Counted from the stretch's first letter, positions 3,114 to 63,061 are shown. The stretch: DNA of 64,000 bases from Minisyncoccota bacterium (GCA_041659205.1 JBAZYS010000002.1:87806-151805); one strand, 5' to 3'. Notes: generated by a model from the sequence alone, not told the origin. Numbers and translations: made by a program.

Positions 3114-3130
3114 ATAAATTAATTCATAAA

Positions 3131-3224
3131 AGAAATACTTTAAAAGGGTACAGATTTTTTGAAGCTTAAAAAATCCTGAAGTTTTCGTGTCGCCACACTC
3201 AAAACCCCCTTTTAAAGTATTTCT
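3131..3224 (+). repeat. intergenic palindromic repeat family 1, copy A: conserved core GGTACAGATTTTTTGAAGCTTAAAAAATCCTGAAG...AAAACCCC enclosed by an 18-bp perfect inverted repeat
   Basis: The core at 3149..3206 recurs at 15340, 28910 (reverse complement), 30838 and 31801. Flanks AGAAATACTTTAAAAGGG (3131..3148) and CCCTTTTAAAGTATTTCT (3207..3224) are perfect inverted repeats. It lies between the convergent 3' ends of CDS 1731..3113 and jag. Confidence 0.8.
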
Positions 3225-3235
3225 TTTATTTTCTT

Positions 3236-12258: not shown

Positions 12259-12374
12259 ATTTTTTTTAATTTAAATTTTTAATAAGCGACCAAAAACAAA
12301 CGCTATCTAATTTATTCTTTTGTAACAAAATCCAAAAGGATTGGCAATAGCAAATGTGGATAACCTAACTATAG

Positions 12375-12470
12375 AAATATAGTCTTTTAAAAAGCATTGC
12401 GACCAGCTACCGAGCGAGTATAGCAAATTTTCAGCAGAAAATTATGTGCGGTTTTTAAAAGACTATATTT
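12375..12470 (+). repeat. GC-rich miniature repeat family 2, copy 1, enclosed by a 19-bp perfect inverted repeat
   Basis: Core 12394..12451 (GCATTGCGACCAGCTACCGAGCGAGTATAGCAAATTTTCAGCAGAAAATTATGTGCGG) shares AATTTTTCAGCAGAAAAATAT and a GC-rich hairpin with the copies at 54148 and 62386. Flanks AAATATAGTCTTTTAAAAA and TTTTTAAAAGACTATATTT are perfect inverted repeats; the right one overlaps the ruvC stop. Confidence 0.7.
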
Positions 12471-12958
12471 TTATAGTTTTGCCCTTTTAAATGTGCAAAA
12501 GCTGTAATAGCGATGGCAATAGCATCCAATTCATCGTCTGACTTTTTAGAATTATCTATATCCACTAATATTTTTACCATTTTTATTATTTGTTCTTTAT
12601 TTGCTTTTCCATAACCCGTGGTAGCTATTTTTATTTGAGGGGGGGAGGCTTCAAATATTTTTAATCCAGCATTTGTGGCTTCATAAATTACTACCCCGCG
12701 TGCTTCGGCGACGTGCATGACTGTTTTATGATTAGTAGTTAAAAATAAAGTTTCTATCGAAAGAACATCAGGTTTGTATTTTTTTATTATTTTTTTTACT
12801 TCTTCACCGATTAAAAGTAATCGTTCATTAAATTCTAATTTGGCAGAAGTTTTAAAGCATTCTGAAAAAATTACAGCTTCTTTTTTATCACCTTGTTTTT
12901 TCTCTAAGACCGCGACACCGAGGCGTTCATATCCTGGATCTATTCCTAAAATTATCAT
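12455..12958 (-). CDS. ruvC: crossover junction endodeoxyribonuclease RuvC
   Basis: MIILGIDPGYERLGVAVLE with RNase-H-like fold catalytic Asp/Glu. 167 aa. Confidence 0.9.
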   Translation of the reverse strand: MIILGIDPGYERLGVAVLEKKQGDKKEAVIFSECFKTSAKLEFNERLLLIGEEVKKIIKKYKPDVLSIETLFLTTNHKTVMHVAEARGVVIYEATNAGLKIFEASPPQIKIATTGYGKANKEQIIKMVKILVDIDNSKKSDDELDAIAIAITAFAHLKGQNYKNIVF

Positions 12959-13125
12959 AACTAAAGTTTAACATAATATGTGGATATTTTAATTGACTTT
13001 AGAAATATTAGTGATATATTAAACGTAATTTCCTCTCTGGATGTTTTTCTTTGAGAGGGTGTTCCTTTCAAAGATTCTGGAGATCCACCACAACCAGGGC
13101 CTAAAAGCCCTAAGCAGGAGGATTC

Positions 13126-13275
13126 ATGAAGAAATTCACCGCGCTCATCCCGATCAGCTCGTTCCTGACCCCGGTCATGACGCTGACCTTCGAGCTCCAG
13201 CCCAACGCCCACGGCCAAAGCGGCGCCGTCGGCACGATCTCCATCGGCCACCCCGTCACCCGTAACGGCACTTGA
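13126..13275 (+). CDS. small ORF (49 aa) inside a GC-rich mini-island, preceded by a perfect Shine-Dalgarno
   Basis: AGGAGG at 13116..13121, 4 nt before the ATG. Product MKKFTALIPISSFLTPVMTLTFELQPNAHGQSGAVGTISIGHPVTRNGT. It is antisense to the ruvB-yebC-ruvC transcription direction. Confidence 0.3.
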   Translation: MKKFTALIPISSFLTPVMTLTFELQPNAHGQSGAVGTISIGHPVTRNGT

Positions 13276-13440
13276 ATTAGGGAAAGCATCACGTTGGTGC
13301 TTTCCCAAAAACTCAAACGCCTCCGAAGGAACGGGTTGTTGAAGAAAGGGGAGGCCTCTCACGAGGCCTCCCCCGACTATCAAAAGTCATTAAGATTTTT
13401 TATTTTAAAAAAACACTGGTGGCTTTTTTAATTTGTCTTT

Positions 13441-15095: not shown

Positions 15096-15318
15096 TTATA
15101 GCATTTGTTGTTCGCCTTATATAGTATAATAGTTTTAAGAGATTAAGCAGAAGGCATTAATCTCTAAGCAATCAGCCACAGGTTATACGAATTTGCATAG
15201 GACGTTTTGGTTACTTTTATTAGTTCACTGGAACCATCCTATAATACTTTGTTACTTTTGGGGCCCAGCTCCGAAAGGATTGTTTAGAGATTAATGCTTT
15301 TTTTATTTGTAAAATTAA

Positions 15319-15420
15319 ACCAAGAATAAAGTTTTTGTCGGTACGGATTTTTTGAAGCTTAAAAAATCCTGAAATTCTCAGCTCGTCAGCTTCGAAACCC
15401 CTTAAAAACTTTTTCTTGGT
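15319..15420 (+). repeat. intergenic palindromic repeat family 1, copy B, enclosed by a 17/18-bp inverted repeat
   Basis: Core 15340..15403 (GGTACGGATTTTTTGAAGCTTAAAAAATCCTGAAATTCTCAGCTCGTCAGCTTCGAAACCCCTTAAAAAC). Flanks ACCAAGAATAAAGTTTTT and AAAAACTTTTTCTTGGT. It sits at the 3' end of pilB. ORF-track ORF 15220..15435 is a translation of this element. Confidence 0.8.
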
Positions 15421-15424
15421 TTTT

Positions 15425-28329: not shown

Positions 28330-28802
28330 TGAAAAAAGAAAACGTTTTAATCTTACATAATATACGAAGCGTCTCCAACGTCGGTGCGATGTTTCGTACG
28401 GCAGACGCAGCCGGAATAAATAAAATTTATTTGACTGGTTACACCCCAGCACCGCTTGATCGTTTCGGTAGGAAAAGAGGAGACTTGGCAAAGTCAGCAC
28501 TCGGTGCTGAAGAATTTGTGCCCTGGGAACAAAAGAAAAGTATTTCTGCACTACTTACTAAATTAAAGAAGGAAAATTTTTTAATTATTGGCATAGAGCA
28601 AGACAAAAAGTCTATTGATTATAAAAAGGTAAAAATTAAACAAAAGAATGCATTCTTGGTGGGTGAAGAGGTGGCTGGAATTTCTAAAGAAAATCTAAAA
28701 AAGTGCGATGTTATTGCTGAAATACCAATGCGTGGGAAAAAAGAATCCTTAAATGTATCTGTGGCGCTGGGGATCGCTTTATTTAGAATATGTAACTTAT
28801 AA
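28329..28802 (+). CDS. SPOUT-superfamily RNA 2'-O-methyltransferase (TrmH/SpoU family)
   Basis: SpoU motifs: LVGEEVAGIS, AEIPMRGKKESLNVSVALGIALF. Confidence 0.8.
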   Translation: MKKENVLILHNIRSVSNVGAMFRTADAAGINKIYLTGYTPAPLDRFGRKRGDLAKSALGAEEFVPWEQKKSISALLTKLKKENFLIIGIEQDKKSIDYKKVKIKQKNAFLVGEEVAGISKENLKKCDVIAEIPMRGKKESLNVSVALGIALFRICNL

Positions 28803-28895
28803 TGTCCGCATAAAATTTTGCTGAATTTTTGCTCAAGACTCGGCCCGTCGGCCTCCGTAGCTATTATAAATTTCATATTCTAAATTATTGGATAA

Positions 28896-28999
28896 GATAA
28901 AGAATAAAGTTTTTAAGGGGTTTCAAAGCTGACGAGCTGAGAATTTCAGGATTTTTTAAGCTTCAAAAAATCCGTACCGACAAAAATTTTATTTTTTAT
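28896..28999 (-). repeat. intergenic palindromic repeat family 1, copy C (reverse-complement orientation)
   Basis: The reverse complement of 28910..28978 reads GGTACGGATTTTTTGAAGCTTAAAAAATCCTGAAATTCTCAGCTCGTCAGCTTTGAAACCCCTTAAAAAC. Imperfect AT-rich inverted flanks. It lies between the convergent 3' ends of trmH-like and mutM. Confidence 0.8.
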
Positions 29000-29001
29000 C
29001 T

Positions 29002-29874
29002 TTACTTCTGATGCACTGAGCAAAAGTGGGCACTACGGCCGTTTACTACTATTCTTTTTATGATGCCCCTACAGCCTATTTTTCTACATTTTTCTCCTGT
29101 GCGTCTGTAGGCTTCGTGGTGCATTTGGAATTTACCTGGCAGGCCATAAATATTTTTATAATCTGACATTGAGTCTCCCCCGAAATCTATACCTTTTTTC
29201 AGTGTTTCTTTTATTGCTTTGAATATTAGTTCTAGCTCCTTTTTGTTGATTTTTGAAACTTTTCGTTCTGGGTGCACACTAGCTCGCCAGAGTATTTCGT
29301 CGGAATAAATATTTCCAATACCAGCGATGATACTCTGATTTATCAGAACTGTTTTTATCTTTCCGTTTGGTTTTTTATTTAATTGCTCATTTAGTTTTTC
29401 TAAAGTGAAATTTTTTTCTAGGGGCTCTGGACCGATATTATTTAGATGTCTTGTGTTATGTGCAGTTTTTGTATCAAGAAGAGTAATCTTTCCAAATTTT
29501 CTTAAATCAGAAAATACTAAATATTTTTTATTAGAAAGGGAAAAAACAACATGGGCAAATTTAATTTTGGGATCCTTCCCATAAAAAAGGTACCCTGTCA
29601 TTTTTAAATGTACGAGTATCGTTTTACTTGCCCCGATATGGCGTGGGCCCCCAGAAAGATTTATCAAAATATTTTTTGCTCGTCTTTCTATAGACAAAAC
29701 TTTTTTCCCTATAATTTCTTTCCTGAATACAGTAAAAAACTTAGGATTAGCAATTGATTCCTTTTGGCGTTTGTCTTTAGTGGACAAATCTGTCCAAACA
29801 TTTGTTATTTTTAGACCTAAAATTGTCTTTTCCAGGCCTCGTTTTGTTGTTTCTACTTCTGGTAATTCTGGCAT
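29002..29874 (-). CDS. mutM: formamidopyrimidine-DNA glycosylase (Fpg/MutM family)
   Basis: N-terminal MPELPEVE catalytic Pro2/Glu3. C-terminal zinc finger CRKIGCRG...C..H. Confidence 0.9.
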   Translation of the reverse strand: MPELPEVETTKRGLEKTILGLKITNVWTDLSTKDKRQKESIANPKFFTVFRKEIIGKKVLSIERRAKNILINLSGGPRHIGASKTILVHLKMTGYLFYGKDPKIKFAHVVFSLSNKKYLVFSDLRKFGKITLLDTKTAHNTRHLNNIGPEPLEKNFTLEKLNEQLNKKPNGKIKTVLINQSIIAGIGNIYSDEILWRASVHPERKVSKINKKELELIFKAIKETLKKGIDFGGDSMSDYKNIYGLPGKFQMHHEAYRRTGEKCRKIGCRGIIKRIVVNGRSAHFCSVHQK

Positions 29875-29956: not shown

Positions 29957-30817
29957 ATGTTAATGAAAAGATTACGATTTATATTATTTATTTTTTCAAT
30001 ATTTTTCCTGGTGCCTCTTTCAAAGAGCCAAGCTAGTGTTGCCGCGCCTATTAAAATTTTATTAGTTCCAGGGCATGATGATGAAGTTTGGGGAGCAAAA
30101 TATAGGAATGTAAAAGAGGCAGATATGAATTTGGCAGTAGCTACCCAGATTTATAATCTCTTAAAGAAAGATAAAAGATTTGATGTCTATGTTACTCGTG
30201 ACAATAATGGTTATACAAAAGATTTTGCAGATTATTTCCCTGCACAAAGAGATAAAATTTTAGCTTTTGAACAAAATGCTAAAAAAATAATGAATAGTAA
30301 TATTTCTAGTGGTAATTTTGTTCAGAAAGAGAACGCACCACATCACACCGTGAGTGAAGACATTGCCTTACGTTTGTATGGTTTTAATAAATGGGCGAAT
30401 GAAAATAAAATAGATGCAGTAGTTCATTTTCATTTTAATGATTATCCGCGTTCCAATAGCCAAAAAATTGGCAAGTACAAAGGATTTGCCATCTATATGC
30501 CAGATGGGCAATTTGTAAATTCTAGGGAAAGTGGACAGCTCGCCGCTAATATTTTTACCCAGTTGCATAAAAAATATGCATCCAGTGACTGGAAACCAGA
30601 AGCAGGAGGACTTGTACCAGACCAAAAGCTCATTGCTATTGGTGCGAATAATACATTGAATGCTTCCGTGCGCTCTGTTCTAATAGAATATGGATATGTT
30701 TATGAAAAGAAATTTAGAACAAAGGCTGCGCGTCTTTCCGCTTATAAAAACATGGCAAGTCTTACCTCAACAGGAATAAAAAATTATTTTTTCCCCAAAA
30801 AAGTTAGCACAAAATAA
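29957..30817 (+). CDS. secreted N-acetylmuramoyl-L-alanine amidase (Amidase_3 family)
   Basis: Signal peptide. LLVPGHDDEVWGAKY...YVTRDNN matches the amidase_3 zinc-binding core. Confidence 0.8.
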   Translation: MLMKRLRFILFIFSIFFLVPLSKSQASVAAPIKILLVPGHDDEVWGAKYRNVKEADMNLAVATQIYNLLKKDKRFDVYVTRDNNGYTKDFADYFPAQRDKILAFEQNAKKIMNSNISSGNFVQKENAPHHTVSEDIALRLYGFNKWANENKIDAVVHFHFNDYPRSNSQKIGKYKGFAIYMPDGQFVNSRESGQLAANIFTQLHKKYASSDWKPEAGGLVPDQKLIAIGANNTLNASVRSVLIEYGYVYEKKFRTKAARLSAYKNMASLTSTGIKNYFFPKKVSTK

Positions 30818-30923
30818 ATAAAAAGATTTTTGCCGGTACGAATTTTTTGAAGCTTAAAAAATTCTGAAATTCTCGGCTCGTCAGCCTCGAAACCCCTTAA
30901 AAACCTTTTTATTTATTTTGTAC
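30807..30923 (+). repeat. intergenic palindromic repeat family 1, copy D, enclosed by a 19-bp inverted repeat that overlaps both convergent stop codons
   Basis: Core 30838..30904 (GGTACGAATTTTTTGAAGCTTAAAAAATTCTGAAATTCTCGGCTCGTCAGCCTCGAAACCCCTTAAAAAC). Flanks GCACAAAATAAATAAAAAG and CTTTTTATTTATTTTGTAC. The left flank contains the amidase stop and the right flank the ruvA stop. Confidence 0.8.
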
Positions 30924-31479
30924 TTAATATTTTTAGTGCCTCACGGATTCTGGTGTTCATGGTTGCGTCAGGGGAGCACTTCTTTAATGCCTCCCGTGCT
31001 TCGTTTTGAGAATAACCTAGTGATTTTAAAGCCTCGAGTGCATCCAATTCTTCTTTAAGGGAACTTTCTCCTTTATCTTCTCCTATCTTGTCTCGCAACT
31101 CTATCACAATTTTTTCTGCCGTTTTTTTACCTATACCAGATATTTTTGTAAGGTATGAGACGTCTCCAGTCCCAATAGCTTTTTTGAGTGTTTCGATTGA
31201 AGCAATTCCAAGGATTGCGAGAGCCGAGCGTGGCCCAATGCCAGATACATTTATGAGCATTTCAAAGAATTCTAATTCTTCTCGGTCTAGAAAGCCGTAT
31301 AGGTCGAGTGCATCTTCCCGCACTCGGGTATGAATGGAGAGCATTATTTCATCACCGACTTTTTTTACTTTAGATAAAGTGTCTGGAGAGGCACTTATTT
31401 TATAACCAACTCCGCCCGTCTCCACTATTAAGAATTTATCTGTTTTTAATATAATTTTTCCTTTTATGCTTCCGATCAT
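30913..31479 (-). CDS. ruvA: Holliday junction DNA helicase RuvA
   Basis: MIGSIKGKI N-terminal OB domain. Two HhH motifs (GIGPRSALAIL, GIGKKTAEKI). C-terminal RuvB-binding domain. Confidence 0.9.
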   Translation of the reverse strand: MIGSIKGKIILKTDKFLIVETGGVGYKISASPDTLSKVKKVGDEIMLSIHTRVREDALDLYGFLDREELEFFEMLINVSGIGPRSALAILGIASIETLKKAIGTGDVSYLTKISGIGKKTAEKIVIELRDKIGEDKGESSLKEELDALEALKSLGYSQNEAREALKKCSPDATMNTRIREALKILSTK

Positions 31480-31784: not shown

Positions 31785-31885
31785 AGAATAATATTTTTTT
31801 GGTACAGATTTTTTGAAGCTTAAAAAATCTTGAAGTTTGCTCGCCGTCGCTCGCAAAACCCCTTCAAAATAATATTCTTTATTTT
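31780..31885 (+). repeat. intergenic palindromic repeat family 1, copy E
   Basis: Core 31801..31866 (GGTACAGATTTTTTGAAGCTTAAAAAATCTTGAAGTTTGCTCGCCGTCGCTCGCAAAACCCCTTCAAAAT). Near-perfect inverted flanks AAATAAAGAATAATATTTT and AAAATAATATTCTTTATTTT. The left flank overlaps the rpsT stop. Confidence 0.8.
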
Positions 31886-54046: not shown

Positions 54047-54128
54047 GCCCAGGTGGAGAAACTGGTAGACTTACTACCTTGAGGTGGTAGCGCCGAAAGG
54101 CATGGGGGTTCGAGTCCCCCCCTGGGCA
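54047..54128 (+). tRNA. tRNA-Leu (anticodon GAG), long variable arm
   Basis: GCCCAGGTGGAGAAACTGGTAGACTTACTACCTTGAGGTGGTAGCGCCGAAAGGCATGGGGGTTCGAGTCCCCCCTGGGCA. Confidence 0.85.
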
Positions 54129-54147
54129 CAAAAGCGAAGCTTTTGTG

Positions 54148-54213
54148 AGTCCGCAGCGCGACGGCGCGAGGAGCGGGCCGCGAAATTTTTCAGCAGAAAA
54201 ATATTTGCGACCC
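54148..54213 (+). repeat. GC-rich miniature repeat family 2, copy 2
   Basis: AGTCCGCAGCGCGACGGCGCGAGGAGCGGGCCGCGAAATTTTTCAGCAGAAAAATATTTGCGACCC. The hairpin GCGC-GACG-GCGC covaries with GCCC-GACG-GGGC in copy 3. It sits between tRNA-Leu and tRNA-His. Confidence 0.7.
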
Positions 54214-54260
54214 AAATGATTAGCATTTTTATGCTTTTTTTGTTATAACTATTCATACAT

Positions 54261-59562: not shown

Positions 59563-59660
59563 AGCTTTTTATTGCTATAATGAGTTTATTATAAGTATTA
59601 AATAACCAAGCACCGCGCCACAACGGACGGTCGCACGGCGTGATTTTGTAAAATCAAATT

Positions 59661-61958: not shown

Positions 61959-62381
61959 ATGGCAAAGAAAATAACTAAAAAAATTAAATTACAAATCCAG
62001 GCCGCAAAGGCAACCCCTGCGCCCCCTTTAGGGCCCGCACTCGGTCAAGCTGGTATTAACATTGGTGATTTCGTTACTAAGTTTAACGCTGCAACAGCTA
62101 AGATGGCTGGAGACAAAGTTGGAGTTTCTATCACTGTTTACGAAGACCGAAGTTATGATTTCGTTATTAAGACTCCTCCCGTTACAGGACTTATCCTTAA
62201 AGCAGCTGGTATAGAGAAAGGTTCAGGTAAAAACGCTTCTACAAAAGTTGGTAAAATAACTAAAGCTCAGGCTCTAGAAATTGCTAACAAGAAACGCGCA
62301 GACTTGAATGCCAAGGACGACCAAGGTGCGATCAACATCGTCGCCGGCTCCGCTCGAAGCATGGGGGTAGAAGTAATATAA
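61959..62381 (+). CDS. rplK: 50S ribosomal protein L11
   Basis: [35 protein letters not shown] is the canonical L11 N-terminus. Confidence 0.95.
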
Positions 62382-62473
62382 ATTACTTATACCGGCCGGA
62401 GCCCGACGGGGCGAGGCGTGCCCAGACAATTTTTCAGTAGAAAAATATGTGTGGGTAGAAGTAATATAAATTA
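62366..62473 (+). mobile_element. GC-rich miniature repeat family 2, copy 3: a 68-bp insert flanked by 20-bp direct repeats GGTAGAAGTAATATAAATTA (target-site-duplication-like) that include the rplK stop
   Basis: DR1 at 62366..62385 covers rplK codons GVEVI*. The insert 62386..62453 is CTTATACCGGCCGGAGCCCGACGGGGCGAGGCGTGCCCAGACAATTTTTCAGTAGAAAAATATGTGTG. DR2 is at 62454..62473. Confidence 0.7.
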
Positions 62474-62501
62474 GTAATATAAATTAATTTTTACACTAAA
62501 A

Positions 62502-62529
62502 AGCCAACGGTCCGACCGTTGGCTTTTTT
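62502..62529 (+). terminator. rho-independent terminator after rplK (AGCCAACGG-TCCGA-CCGTTGGCT + T6)
   Basis: Perfect 9-bp stem followed by TTTTTT. Confidence 0.85.
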
Positions 62530-62554
62530 CGTTTTCAGGGAGTATATTTAAGAG

Positions 62555-63061
62555 GTGAAAAAATTTAAAGATAAAAATATTAAACACAAAAGACCCAGCT
62601 GGGACGAGTATTTTATTGGAATGGCGGACTATGTGGGGACTAGGGGGACTTGTGATAGAGGGAAGAGTGGCTGCATAATCGTTAAAGACAAAAGAGTCAT
62701 TTCTACTGGTTACGTCGGTTCACCTCCTGGGTTACCTCATTGTGACGATGTAGGCCACGAAATGCATACTGTCGTAAATGAAGATGGGTCAAAGTCGCAA
62801 CACTGCATTAGAACTGCGCACGCAGAACAAAATGCTATTTCTCAAGCAGCTAGATTTGGAATTGCTGTAGACGGAAGTATTTTATATTGTCGTATGACAC
62901 CTTGTTATTCTTGTGCAAAAAGTATAATCACTGCAGGGATAAAAAGAGTAGTAGCCGAGAGAGATTATCATGCATCCAAGAGAAGTAAAGAAATTTTTAA
63001 AAAAGCCGGACTAAAATTAGAAATTATAAATAAAGAAGTGCAAAAATATTCTAAGCAATAA
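62555..63061 (+). CDS. dCMP deaminase (ComEB/cytidine-deaminase-like zinc enzyme)
   Basis: HAEQNAI (zinc His and catalytic Glu) and PCYSCAKSI (zinc Cys pair). 168 aa. Confidence 0.85.
   Translation: MKKFKDKNIKHKRPSWDEYFIGMADYVGTRGTCDRGKSGCIIVKDKRVISTGYVGSPPGLPHCDDVGHEMHTVVNEDGSKSQHCIRTAHAEQNAISQAARFGIAVDGSILYCRMTPCYSCAKSIITAGIKRVVAERDYHASKRSKEIFKKAGLKLEIINKEVQKYSKQ

What the first reader, a model, noticed from the sequence alone, without database searches (positions are those of the whole stretch)
62366..62473. Family 2: GC-rich ~65-bp miniature element, one copy inserted at the rplK stop with a 20-bp flanking direct duplication
Seen in sequence.

Three clear copies share a GC-rich hairpin plus the AT hairpin TTTTTC-AGCA-GAAAAA inside AATTTTTCAGCAGAAAAATAT. 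Their cores are at 12394..12451, 54148..54213 and 62386..62453.

In copy 3 the 68-bp insert is bracketed by perfect 20-bp direct repeats GGTAGAAGTAATATAAATTA. The first repeat encodes the last five codons and the stop of rplK. This is the signature of an insertion with target duplication that preserved the L11 C-terminus.

Copies 2 and 3 show a compensatory change in the GC hairpin (GCGC-GACG-GCGC versus GCCC-GACG-GGGC). Copy 1 is instead enclosed by a perfect 19-bp inverted repeat.

The 60-70% GC cores are strikingly foreign to this ~33% GC genome. A degenerate fourth relative (ACGGACGGTCGCACGGCGTG followed by GATTTT-GT-AAAATC) lies at 59610..59656.
Basis: seen in the sequence. Interest (0 to 1): 0.62.

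Follow-up and report, generated by a model that had tools for sequence, protein, structure and literature searches.

The report
Y-shaped GC-rich repeat after rplK
The 68-base GC-rich insert after the ribosomal protein L11 gene is one copy of an apparently undescribed, structured repeat found at gene ends throughout the tiny-celled Patescibacteria; it entered rplK long ago by copying the gene's last codons, and its core has stayed highly conserved since.

Summary
The reported features are real. There are three + strand copies of a two-hairpin GC-rich core. Copy 3 is bracketed by a perfect 20-21-nt direct repeat of the rplK end.

The core belongs to a Patescibacteria-wide family: more than 120 loci in species-representative genomes, no Rfam 15 match, none in viral contigs. 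Its Y-shaped fold is supported by covariation. The window holds at least eight copies, all next to gene 3' ends.

Among 82 related rplK loci:
- nine carry the same element at the same site;
- seven carry a different core there;
- the rest, including the closest relative (93% identical), lack either core.

Every filled site reads T (last rplK codons), a 4-5-nt loop holding the stop codon, T' (inverted copy of T), core, T2. In several relatives T2 still spells the longer L11 end G(I/V)EVKD*.

So an insertion with target duplication did happen, but long ago and with an added inverted copy. The core is 93% identical between carriers, while synonymous sites are near saturation (47%).

Best reading: a structured 3'-trailer RNA module of mobile origin; its function is inferred. 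The proposed fourth copy (59610-59656) is not supported.

The parts
61959..62381 (+). rplK (L11, 140 aa, ends ...SMGVEVI*). It is the last gene of a secE-nusG-rplK unit, and no rplA follows it.
   Evidence: ORF list. Pfam families on the identical protein in L001.
62366..62385 (+). T: upstream copy of the direct repeat. It covers the last base of the Gly codon, codons V-E-V-I, the stop and 4 nt beyond.
   Evidence: It is native, because the same rplK end is present in the empty-site relatives L001 and L002.
62366..62393 (+). P0 hairpin: GGTAGAAGTAAT / loop ATAA (holds the stop codon TAA, 62379-62381) / ATTACTTATACC (T', an inverted copy of the rplK end).
   Evidence: Inverted repeat I3 and RNA fold. 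In 17 filled rplK loci T' matches that genome's own rplK end at 11-12 of 12 positions. In the 14 distinct P0 sequences, 98.2% of cells are paired, there are 27 double changes, and 0 of 500 shuffles reach this.
62395..62417 (+). P1: GCC-GGA-GCCC-GACG-GGGC-GA-GGC. A GC hairpin with a GNA/GA internal loop and a GACG loop.
   Evidence: Fold. Family covariation in helices 1 and 2. cmsearch score 75.8 bits.
62419..62457 (+). P2: outer GC stem (UGCCCAGACA / UGUGUGGGUA) capped by the A/U hairpin AUUUUUC-AGUA-GAAAAAU, with a bulged A. Its 3' strand overlaps the start of T2.
   Evidence: Fold. Helix 3 has 8 pairs with double changes.
62454..62473 (+). T2: downstream copy of the direct repeat, read here as the displaced original rplK end.
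   Evidence: T2 of relatives reads G(I/V)EVK(D)*.
62474..62486 (+). Third, partial copy of the repeat (GTAATATAAATTA), in tandem with the end of T2.
   Evidence: Repeat family D1.
62498..62528 (+). Canonical intrinsic terminator downstream of the element. Copy 3 therefore lies inside the rplK 3' UTR.
   Evidence: Inverted repeat I2 and terminator scan.
54127..54213 (+). Copy 2. The P0 hairpin CACAAAAGC-GAA-GCTTTTGTG starts in the last bases of tRNA-Leu(GAG) (54047-54129). The P1+P2 core is at 54146-54213. A terminator-like hairpin follows at 54222-54241.
   Evidence: cmsearch score 76.1 bits.
12367..12478 (+). Copy 1. A degenerate core (12394-12451) sits at the apex of a 27-bp stem (12367-12393 / 12452-12478). 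The ruvC ORF (minus strand) runs 8 codons into the 3' arm.
   Evidence: 21.8 bits. The orthologous filled locus is L207; L206 is empty or a remnant. RuvC orthologues are 158-160 aa against 167 aa here.
3126..3229 (-). Sub-family B2 copy (core 3149-3208) at the apex of a 23-bp perfect stem, between convergent genes.
   Evidence: Fold z = -7.98.
15318..15421 (-). Sub-family B2 copy (core 15342-15401) with long arms.
   Evidence: Fold z = -5.2. blastn 97% to the B2 core.
28781..28885 (-). Family copy (core 28801-28863) whose A/U hairpin stem is flipped (AAAAUU/AAUUUU). One arm contains the last codons of the trmH-like gene.
   Evidence: (25.3 bits).
28896..29000 (+). Sub-family B2 copy (core 28917-28980). 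It lies head-to-head with the previous copy, between convergent genes.
30815..30915 (-). Sub-family B2 copy (core 30837-30896). Its two arms carry the stop codons of both convergent genes.

Best explanation
Copy 3 belongs to a Patescibacteria-wide family of short structured repeats.

Structure
- The conserved core is two hairpins.
  - P1 is a GC stem with a GNA/GA internal loop and a GACG loop.
  - P2 is a stem capped by AUUUUUC-AGCA-GAAAAAU, with a bulged A.
- The core sits beside or on top of a stem built from locally repeated sequence, which gives a Y-shaped fold.

Origin of the rplK copy (inferred from comparison)
- An ancestor whose L11 ended ...G-I/V-E-V-K-D* received the core a few codons before the stop.
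- The last codons were duplicated, giving T upstream and T2 downstream.
- An inverted copy T' was laid down directly after the new stop codon.
- The gene therefore stayed intact, one residue shorter. Its mRNA now ends in P0 (T:T', with the stop codon in the loop), P1, P2, T2 and then the ordinary terminator.

Function (inferred, not shown)
- The element is transcribed as the 3' trailer of the upstream gene or tRNA.
- It acts in cis as a stable RNA 3'-end module: a barrier or processing signal and a probable protein-binding platform.

Spread and arm upkeep (inferred)
- The family spreads, or once spread, by a copy mechanism that takes its flanking arms from the target.
- The perfect arm complementarity is kept at the DNA level.
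For: Family and fold (shown)
- More than 120 loci in GTDB representative genomes match the pattern. True members occur only in Patescibacteria-labelled or unnamed MAGs.
- 131 covariance-model hits fall in 700 kb of those loci, about 30 beyond the ascertained ones.
- In 38 sequences, 95.4% of cells are paired and 12 pairs show double changes, with G.U intermediates. 0 of 500 shuffles reach this, and slid controls give 38-54%.

Strand specificity (shown)
- Arm mismatches in 51 elements are 27 G.U/U.G against 5 A.C/C.A (p = 1e-4).
- My tally of the table gives 27 of 28 tRNAs within 320 nt of a copy on the element's strand.

Position (shown)
- All eight window copies lie next to gene or tRNA 3' ends. 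Five lie between convergent genes.
- Copy 3 lies between the stop codon and the terminator.

Conservation at the rplK site (shown)
- Among ten carriers the core is 93% identical. rplK third codon positions are 47% identical and first plus second positions 92%.
- The element is 87-95% identical to copies in loci whose flanks are about 75-77% identical.

Insertion and duplication (shown by comparison)
- 65 of 82 related loci carry neither core.
- T2 spells G(I/V)EVKD* in L127, L128, L177, L178 and L195.
- All filled loci have the shorter end G(I/V)EV(K/I)*.

Same rule at tRNAs (shown)
- The direct repeat starts exactly at C56 of the T loop and runs to the tRNA end. Lengths: L008 40 nt, L009 22, L044 20, L055 20, L072 19.
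- An inverted copy of that end lies 5' of the core; in L027 it matches 19 of 20 positions (my reading).

No linked gene and no phage copies
- No protein family is enriched within 3 kb of 125 copies.
- No true copy occurs in 2.9 million viral contigs.
Against: - There are no expression data, so transcription and any RNA function are inferred.
- For long-armed copies the orientation relative to flanking ORFs is mixed: 28 co-oriented tandem, 22 antisense tandem, 21 convergent, 13 divergent, by a crude ORF call. Many copies therefore cannot be simple sense 3' trailers.
- Copy 3 is followed by a normal terminator, so it is not needed for termination.
- The closest relative genome lacks the element at both loci that could be compared. 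The rplK site is clean; the ruvC site may hold a remnant. The element is therefore dispensable.
- Presence is patchy on a weak NusG+L11 tree.
- Element distances do not track host-protein distances (Mantel r = -0.41, p = 0.96). The 93% identity could reflect repeated site-specific acquisition rather than constraint.
- P0 shows only double changes and no G.U states. That fits DNA-level copying and gives no independent evidence of RNA selection on P0.
Confidence: 0.5

Rival explanations
1. It is a purely selfish mobile repeat with no host function. The element spreads by a copy mechanism such as replication template switching, fold-back synthesis or an unlinked enzyme. It survives only where it is harmless, at gene 3' ends. 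The structure is conserved because only well-folded copies can be copied again.
For: - Many copies per genome, with at least 8 in 64 kb.
- Copies in one MAG have identical 66-nt cores but different arms.
- Tandem arrays occur in L008, L086 and L013.
- Distribution at the rplK site is patchy, and a different core occupies the same site in seven loci.
- The element is absent from the closest relative at two loci.
- There is no co-divergence with the host.
- Hairpin caps are swapped between P1 and P2 in some copies.
- The rplK site shows target duplication plus an inverted copy.
Against: - No transposase, reverse transcriptase or integrase family is enriched near 125 copies.
- rplK carriers share locus-specific core features although synonymous sites are near saturation.
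- Sequence conservation of unpaired loop bases holds across classes as distant as Saccharibacteria and Paceibacteria.
- No copies occur in viral contigs.
Confidence: 0.27
2. It is an independent small RNA gene family. The Y-shaped RNA would be a trans-acting or protein-sequestering RNA made from its own promoter or cut out of 3' UTRs. Local arms would serve only as the closing stem.
For: - Covariation is strong and loops are conserved.
- Mismatches are strand-specific.
- Orientation is independent of neighbouring genes for long-armed copies.
- Some sub-groups form rod-like 130-170-nt hairpins with conserved internal loops.
Against: - No conserved promoter-like motif was noticed upstream of copies. 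This was not tested systematically.
- Short-armed copies are co-oriented with the tRNA immediately upstream and begin within its last bases.
- Copy number is very high for a trans-acting RNA.
Confidence: 0.12
3. It is a DNA-level site. The palindromic arms and the two inner palindromes would form a cruciform or a protein-binding, recombination or topology site between convergent genes, as proposed for BIME elements and gyrase. Alternatively the repeats are leftover attachment sites of integrative elements that target gene 3' ends.
For: - Five of eight window copies lie between convergent genes.
- Direct repeats at tRNAs start in the T loop and restore the gene. That is the classic layout of tRNA-targeting integrases, stated from my own knowledge.
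- P0 arms stay perfect without G.U intermediates.
Against: - Arm mismatches are strongly strand-asymmetric, and GA bulges exist on one strand only.
- Only 70-190 nt lie between the direct repeats, and no integrase is nearby.
- The repeat sequence differs at every target, so a fixed attP cannot explain it.
- Window copies lie on both strands (four + and four -) while cumulative GC skew rises throughout. So there is no replication-strand bias.
Confidence: 0.08

Closest known systems
REP / BIME / REPIN elements of Enterobacteria and Pseudomonas (from my own knowledge)
   Same: Both are short, abundant, extragenic hairpin-forming repeats found in either orientation. Both are concentrated after gene 3' ends and between convergent genes. 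Both are transcribed as parts of 3' UTRs, where they can stabilise upstream mRNA. Arms keep complementarity through paired changes.
   Different: In REPs the palindromic arms themselves are the conserved sequence, with a 5' GTAG. They are tied to a RAYT transposase, and no target duplication is known. Here the conserved part is a two-hairpin apex. The arms are locus-specific and in some cases copied from the neighbouring gene end. No RAYT could be looked for, because whole genomes were not available.
Bacterial MITEs (Correia/NEMIS, Rickettsia RPE, ERIC) (from my own knowledge)
   Same: Both are non-autonomous, multi-copy, about 100-150 nt, structured and flanked by direct repeats. They can extend or alter neighbouring ORF ends, as ruvC is extended here.
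   Different: MITEs have conserved terminal inverted repeats and short target duplications of fixed length. Here the termini vary between copies with identical cores. The duplication ranges from about 14 to 40+ nt and comes with an inverted copy.
GC clusters and double-hairpin elements of fungal mitochondria; repetitive hairpin-forming elements of sponge mitochondria (PMC2800124, title seen; the rest from my own knowledge)
   Same: Both are GC-rich, hairpin- or double-hairpin-forming mobile repeats in an AT-rich compact genome. Both lie in intergenic spacers and at gene ends. They can sit in or next to coding ends without destroying the gene.
   Different: Those are organellar and much less conserved in sequence across taxa. 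No conserved GNA/GA motif or A/U hairpin is reported for them. No T / T' / core / T2 layout is described.
tRNA-gene-targeting integrative elements (from my own knowledge)
   Same: The direct repeat begins in the T loop and extends to the tRNA 3' end, so the gene is rebuilt after insertion.
   Different: There is no integrase. Only 70-190 nt lie between the repeats. The same layout occurs at a protein-gene end (rplK). The repeat is target-specific at every site.

Membership tests
Any Rfam 15 RNA family (including small ribozymes, tRNA-like RNAs, sRNAs) | Covariance-model match at the curated gathering score | tested here: not met
   Only seven tRNAs in the window reach the gathering score. At E<=10 over 62300-62560 and E<=5 over 28700-29050 there are only terminator-driven or chance hits far below threshold.
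MITE | Terminal inverted repeats conserved in sequence among copies | tested here: not met
   Copies with identical 66-nt cores (L052, L056, L097, L112) have different arms. The conserved part is central, not terminal.
MITE | Short target-site duplication of fixed length | tested here: not met
   Direct repeats measure 19-40 nt at tRNAs and 21 nt at rplK in the window. Most long-armed copies have none.
MITE / IS-derived element | A cognate transposase encoded by related full-length elements | tested here: inconclusive
   No protein family is enriched within 3 kb of 125 copies. Whole genomes could not be searched.
REP / REPIN | Conserved imperfect palindrome with 5' GTAG, and a RAYT gene in the genome | tested here: inconclusive
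   The conserved sequence here is a two-hairpin apex, not the arms. Presence of a RAYT is not testable without the whole genome.
Intrinsic (Rho-independent) terminator | GC-rich hairpin followed directly by a U tract | tested here: not met
   No U tract follows P2 of copy 3. A separate canonical terminator lies at 62498-62528. Long-armed copies mostly lack a 3' U tract.
Integrase-type integrative element (att sites) | Integrase gene and cargo between direct repeats, with a fixed attP core | tested here: not met
   Only 70-190 nt lie between the repeats. No integrase cluster is nearby. The repeat sequence differs at each target.
Structured non-coding RNA (generic) | Secondary structure kept by compensatory changes on one strand | tested here: met
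   95.4% of cells are paired, 12 pairs show double changes, and 0 of 500 shuffles reach this. G.U versus A.C asymmetry is 27:5.
Structured non-coding RNA (generic) | Evidence of transcription | not testable with these tools
   No transcriptome data are available.
Group I intron in Patescibacteria tRNA genes (bioRxiv 10.1101/2025.07.03.662931) | Group I intron fold inserted at position 35/36 of the anticodon loop | tested here: not met
   The paper's abstract places those introns at 35/36. Here the junction is at 55/56 of a duplicated tRNA 3' end, downstream of an intact tRNA. No group I intron was hit in Rfam.

The most novel reading that the evidence does not exclude
Patescibacteria carry a previously undescribed class of structured mobile RNA/DNA element. 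It homes to the 3' termini of genes: position 55/56 of tRNA T loops and the last codons of ORFs. It builds its own stem by copying the target end once directly and once inverted (T, T', core, T2). That would imply a new copy-and-insert mechanism with no linked transposase, for example target-primed or fold-back template switching. After insertion the copies would be co-opted as conserved 3'-end RNA modules bound by a phylum-specific factor.
Probability: 0.3. Interest if true: 0.85.

Novelty: new variant of a known kind. Interest (0 to 1): 0.68.

Why it matters
Patescibacteria have tiny genomes with very little non-coding DNA. Here a 55-70-nt structured core occurs about once per 8 kb in this window, and it is conserved in sequence across the classes of the phylum.

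- **If it is an RNA module**, it points to an unrecognised, phylum-specific layer of RNA 3'-end biology and to an unknown binding partner.
- **If it is mainly mobile**, its layout (conserved apex, arms copied from the target, direct plus inverted duplication, T-loop junction) does not fit known bacterial transposition schemes.

Practical consequences follow either way. The element alters gene ends: L11 is one residue shorter, and RuvC is eight residues longer. It also marks breakpoints of gene order.

Tried and rejected
- **Known RNA family:** Rfam at gathering and relaxed thresholds on copy 3 and on the 28.8-kb pair gave nothing.
- **Literature:** five full-text searches found no description of this motif. 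The one relevant-looking paper concerns group I introns at tRNA position 35/36 and is a different thing.
- **Linked mobility gene:** all-against-all clustering of ORFs within 3 kb of 125 copies found only scattered housekeeping families.
- **Phage vector:** the same pattern scanned over viral contigs gave three chance hits that lack the upstream GC hairpin and show no family resemblance.
- **Simple terminator:** rejected for copy 3, because a canonical terminator follows it.
- **Arms of copy 1 as a duplicated ruvC coding end:** rejected. RuvC orthologues end 8 residues earlier, the arm starts right after the ancestral stop position, and the window's ORF reads through a CAA where relatives have TAA.
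- **Third direct copy of the arm upstream of long-armed copies:** none was found.
- **Vertical co-divergence of the rplK element with its host:** no positive correlation was found, and the NusG+L11 tree is too weak to count gains and losses.
- **Translational bypass over the insert (T4 gene 60 type):** considered because T2 keeps a codon-like pattern, but set aside. The upstream copy already supplies a complete end and stop, and the third-position excess in T2 rests on only a few variable sites, by my count.
- **Kink-turn in P1:** the internal loop is GNA/GA or GA/GA, with too few bulged bases for a standard K-turn. This is recalled from memory and was not tested.

Full report
**1. What is in the window**

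- The conserved 21-mer occurs three times on the + strand. The chance expectation is 0.02.
- Copy 3 is flanked by GGTAGAAGTAATATAAATTA at 62366-62385 and 62454-62473. The repeat is 21 nt exact and 24 nt with one mismatch. A third partial copy lies at 62474-62486.
- rplK ends at 62381. The first repeat therefore covers V-E-V-I, the stop and 4 nt beyond.
Together they form a hairpin, P0, whose ATAA loop holds the stop codon.
- P1 (62395-62417) and P2 (62419-62457) follow. A canonical terminator lies at 62498-62528.

**2. The family is phylum-wide and structured**

Distribution:
Nearly all are Patescibacteria MAGs: Paceibacteria, Nomurabacteria, Saccharibacteria, Wildermuth-, Lloyd- and Moranii-bacteria.
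- The few hits in other phyla lack P1 and are chance matches.

Two layouts share the same P1 and P2:
- In the short-armed form, a hairpin or short closing stem precedes the core. Window copies 2 and 3 are of this form.
- In the long-armed form, the core caps a 15-40-bp stem that is perfect or nearly so. Some copies have a second outer stem, giving rods of 130-170 nt. Window copy 1 is of this form.
- Some copies have the two hairpin caps exchanged between P1 and P2.

Support for the fold:
- On 38 short-armed cores, 95.4% of cells are paired and 12 of 23 pairs show changes on both sides. 0 of 500 shuffles reach this. Sliding the partners drops pairing to 38-54%.
- The A/U helix never varies, but it was fixed by the search pattern.

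Further members found with the covariance model:
- It scores copies 2 and 3 at 76 bits.
- It finds five more members in the window, each with long arms.
- It finds about 30 copies in the fetched loci beyond those the pattern had picked.
- Rfam has no match for any copy tested.

**3. Evidence that a single strand matters**

- In 51 elements with arms (1197 pairs), mismatches are G.U or U.G 27 times and A.C or C.A 5 times (p = 1e-4).
- My tally of the table gives 27 of 28 tRNAs within 320 nt of a copy on the element's strand. Copies downstream of a tRNA usually begin within its last bases.
- All eight window copies adjoin gene 3' ends, and five lie between convergent genes.
- Across 120 loci the orientation relative to flanking ORFs is otherwise mixed.

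**4. The rplK site in relatives**

A scan of JGI metagenomes with L11 gave 80 loci (81-96% amino-acid identity over the recomputed alignments). L001 and L002, found by exact protein match, add two more.

Occupancy of the site:
- Nine loci (L127, L128, L135, L137, L142, L150, L151, L167, L180) carry the same element at exactly the same place, scoring 68-79 bits.
- Seven loci (L123, L124, L132, L176, L177, L178, L195) carry an unrelated core at that place with the same surrounding layout.
- L192 keeps a remnant.
- The remaining 65 loci carry neither core, including L001 and L002. Those two share an identical L11 and about 93% DNA identity with the window, up to position 62383.

Downstream gene context:
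- Filled and empty sites occur both with yhhQ and with comEB as the downstream gene.
- No relative has a tandem repeat without an insert.

T' and T2:
- In every filled locus T' is complementary to that genome's own last four codons, at 11-12 of 12 positions.
- On the 14 distinct P0 sequences, 98.2% of cells pair. There are 27 double changes and no one-sided or G.U state.
- All filled loci end G(I/V)EV(K/I)*, whereas roughly half of the empty loci end MGIEVKD*.
- T2 reads G(I/V)EVKD* in L127, L128, L177, L178 and L195, and G-V-E-V-K* or similar in the others.

I read T2 as the displaced original gene end. On that reading the insertion duplicated about 14-20 nt of target and added its inverted copy.

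The event is old. Among the ten carriers rplK third positions are 47% identical, yet the core is 93% identical, like first and second codon positions at 92%. The element is 87-95% identical to copies whose flanks are about 75-77% identical.

In relatives T2 differs from T. The perfect identity in this window therefore looks secondary. The window's and L001's unusual G-V-E-V-I end resembles the T2 consensus of other carriers. That hints at conversion of T by T2 and at later loss of the element in L001 (inference).

**5. The same rule at tRNAs**

- In L008, L009, L044, L055 and L072 a perfect 19-40-nt direct repeat starts exactly at C56 of the T loop and runs to the tRNA end or beyond.
- The downstream copy abuts the 3' end of P2.
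- An inverted copy of that end lies 5' of the core. In L027 it matches 19 of 20 positions, by my reading.
- Tandem arrays occur in L008, L086 and L013.

**6. Copy 1**

- RuvC orthologues at 82-94% identity are 158-160 aa. The window protein is 167 aa.
- L207 (90% RuvC identity) has the orthologous element, with arms starting right after its TAA.
- The window has CAA at that position and reads 8 codons into the arm.
- L206 (92% RuvC identity, from the same sample as L001) has 23 nt there instead, possibly a remnant.
- These arms are therefore not copied coding sequence, and the element is dispensable.

**7. What it most likely is**

Shown:
- a covarying, strand-specific, phylum-wide two-hairpin core;
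- placement at gene 3' ends;
- an old insertion in the rplK end with direct and inverted duplication;
- high conservation of the core at that locus;
- no linked gene and no phage copies.

Inferred:
- It is transcribed with the upstream gene and works as a cis-acting 3'-end RNA module, with loops that bind a conserved factor.
- It arose from a repeat that builds its arms from the target.
- The arms stay perfect through DNA-level copying, since P0 shows no G.U intermediates.

Weak points:
- There are no expression data.
- Orientation of long-armed copies is mixed.
- The closest relative has lost the element.
- Distribution is patchy on a weak tree.
- Element distances show no co-divergence with the host.

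A purely selfish reading therefore remains a serious rival.

**8. Comparison and novelty**

In habit it resembles REP/BIME-type repeats, bacterial MITEs and mitochondrial GC-rich double-hairpin elements. It fails the defining tests for MITEs (no conserved termini, no fixed short duplication), intrinsic terminators and integrase att sites, and it matches no Rfam family. I rate it a new variant of a known kind: an interspersed structured repeat with an unusual anatomy (conserved apex, arms sometimes copied from the target, T, T', core, T2).

Noticed in passing
window 13050-13400: A GC-rich stretch of about 350 nt, up to 68% GC in 100-nt windows, lies between ruvC and a yebC-like gene in a roughly 35% GC genome. 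It holds only spurious GC-type ORFs. It has no Rfam match at the gathering score or at E<=1. It is a candidate for an unannotated structured RNA.
   Followed up: partly
window 30815-30925: The two arms of the palindrome around the copy at 30837-30896 carry the last codons and stop of both convergent genes. The gene at 29957-30817 (+) ends ...VSTK*, and ruvA at 30913-31479 (-) ends ...LSTK*. Both proteins therefore end in the same S-T-K read from opposite arms.
   Followed up: partly
window 3149-3208, 15342-15401, 28917-28980, 30837-30896 (partial at 31801-31834): A second sequence sub-family has the same architecture. Its core is GGGGUUUCGAGGCUGACGAGCCGAGAAUUUCAGGAUUUUUUAAGCUUCAAAAAAUCCGUACC, and three of the four full copies are 95-97% identical to it over the whole 62 nt. 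The covariance model links it to the finding.
   Followed up: yes
L123, L124, L132, L176, L177, L178, L195 (directly after rplK): A different three-hairpin insert occupies the same rplK site with the same T, T', core, T2 layout. Its sequence is AAGCTTTTGAGATATTTTG...CAAAATATCCAAAAGGTG followed by TACTGCTCCTGTAAGGAGTA. Its last hairpin also turns up in L006, L008 and L117.
   Followed up: partly
window 61959-62560 and 82 related loci: rplK is never followed by rplA. The next gene is a dCMP deaminase (comEB-like), a yhhQ-like transporter or another gene. This fits the L1-less Parcubacteria known from the literature (my own knowledge). Gene order changes exactly at the element.
   Followed up: no
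window 62461-62486: A 13-nt tandem duplication, GTAATATAAATTA x2, lies at the junction between T2 and the downstream comEB region. It may be a scar of the rearrangement that separates this genome from L001 and L002.
   Followed up: no
window 12455-12481 (ruvC 3' end): RuvC is 8 residues longer than its orthologues. A CAA replaces the ancestral TAA stop, so the ORF runs into the repeat arm.
   Followed up: yes
L207 1-513: A gene with a weak LAGLIDADG_3 hit lies upstream of yebC in a relative, where the window has the unexplained GC-rich stretch. A homing-endonuclease or intron context for that region was not examined.
   Followed up: no
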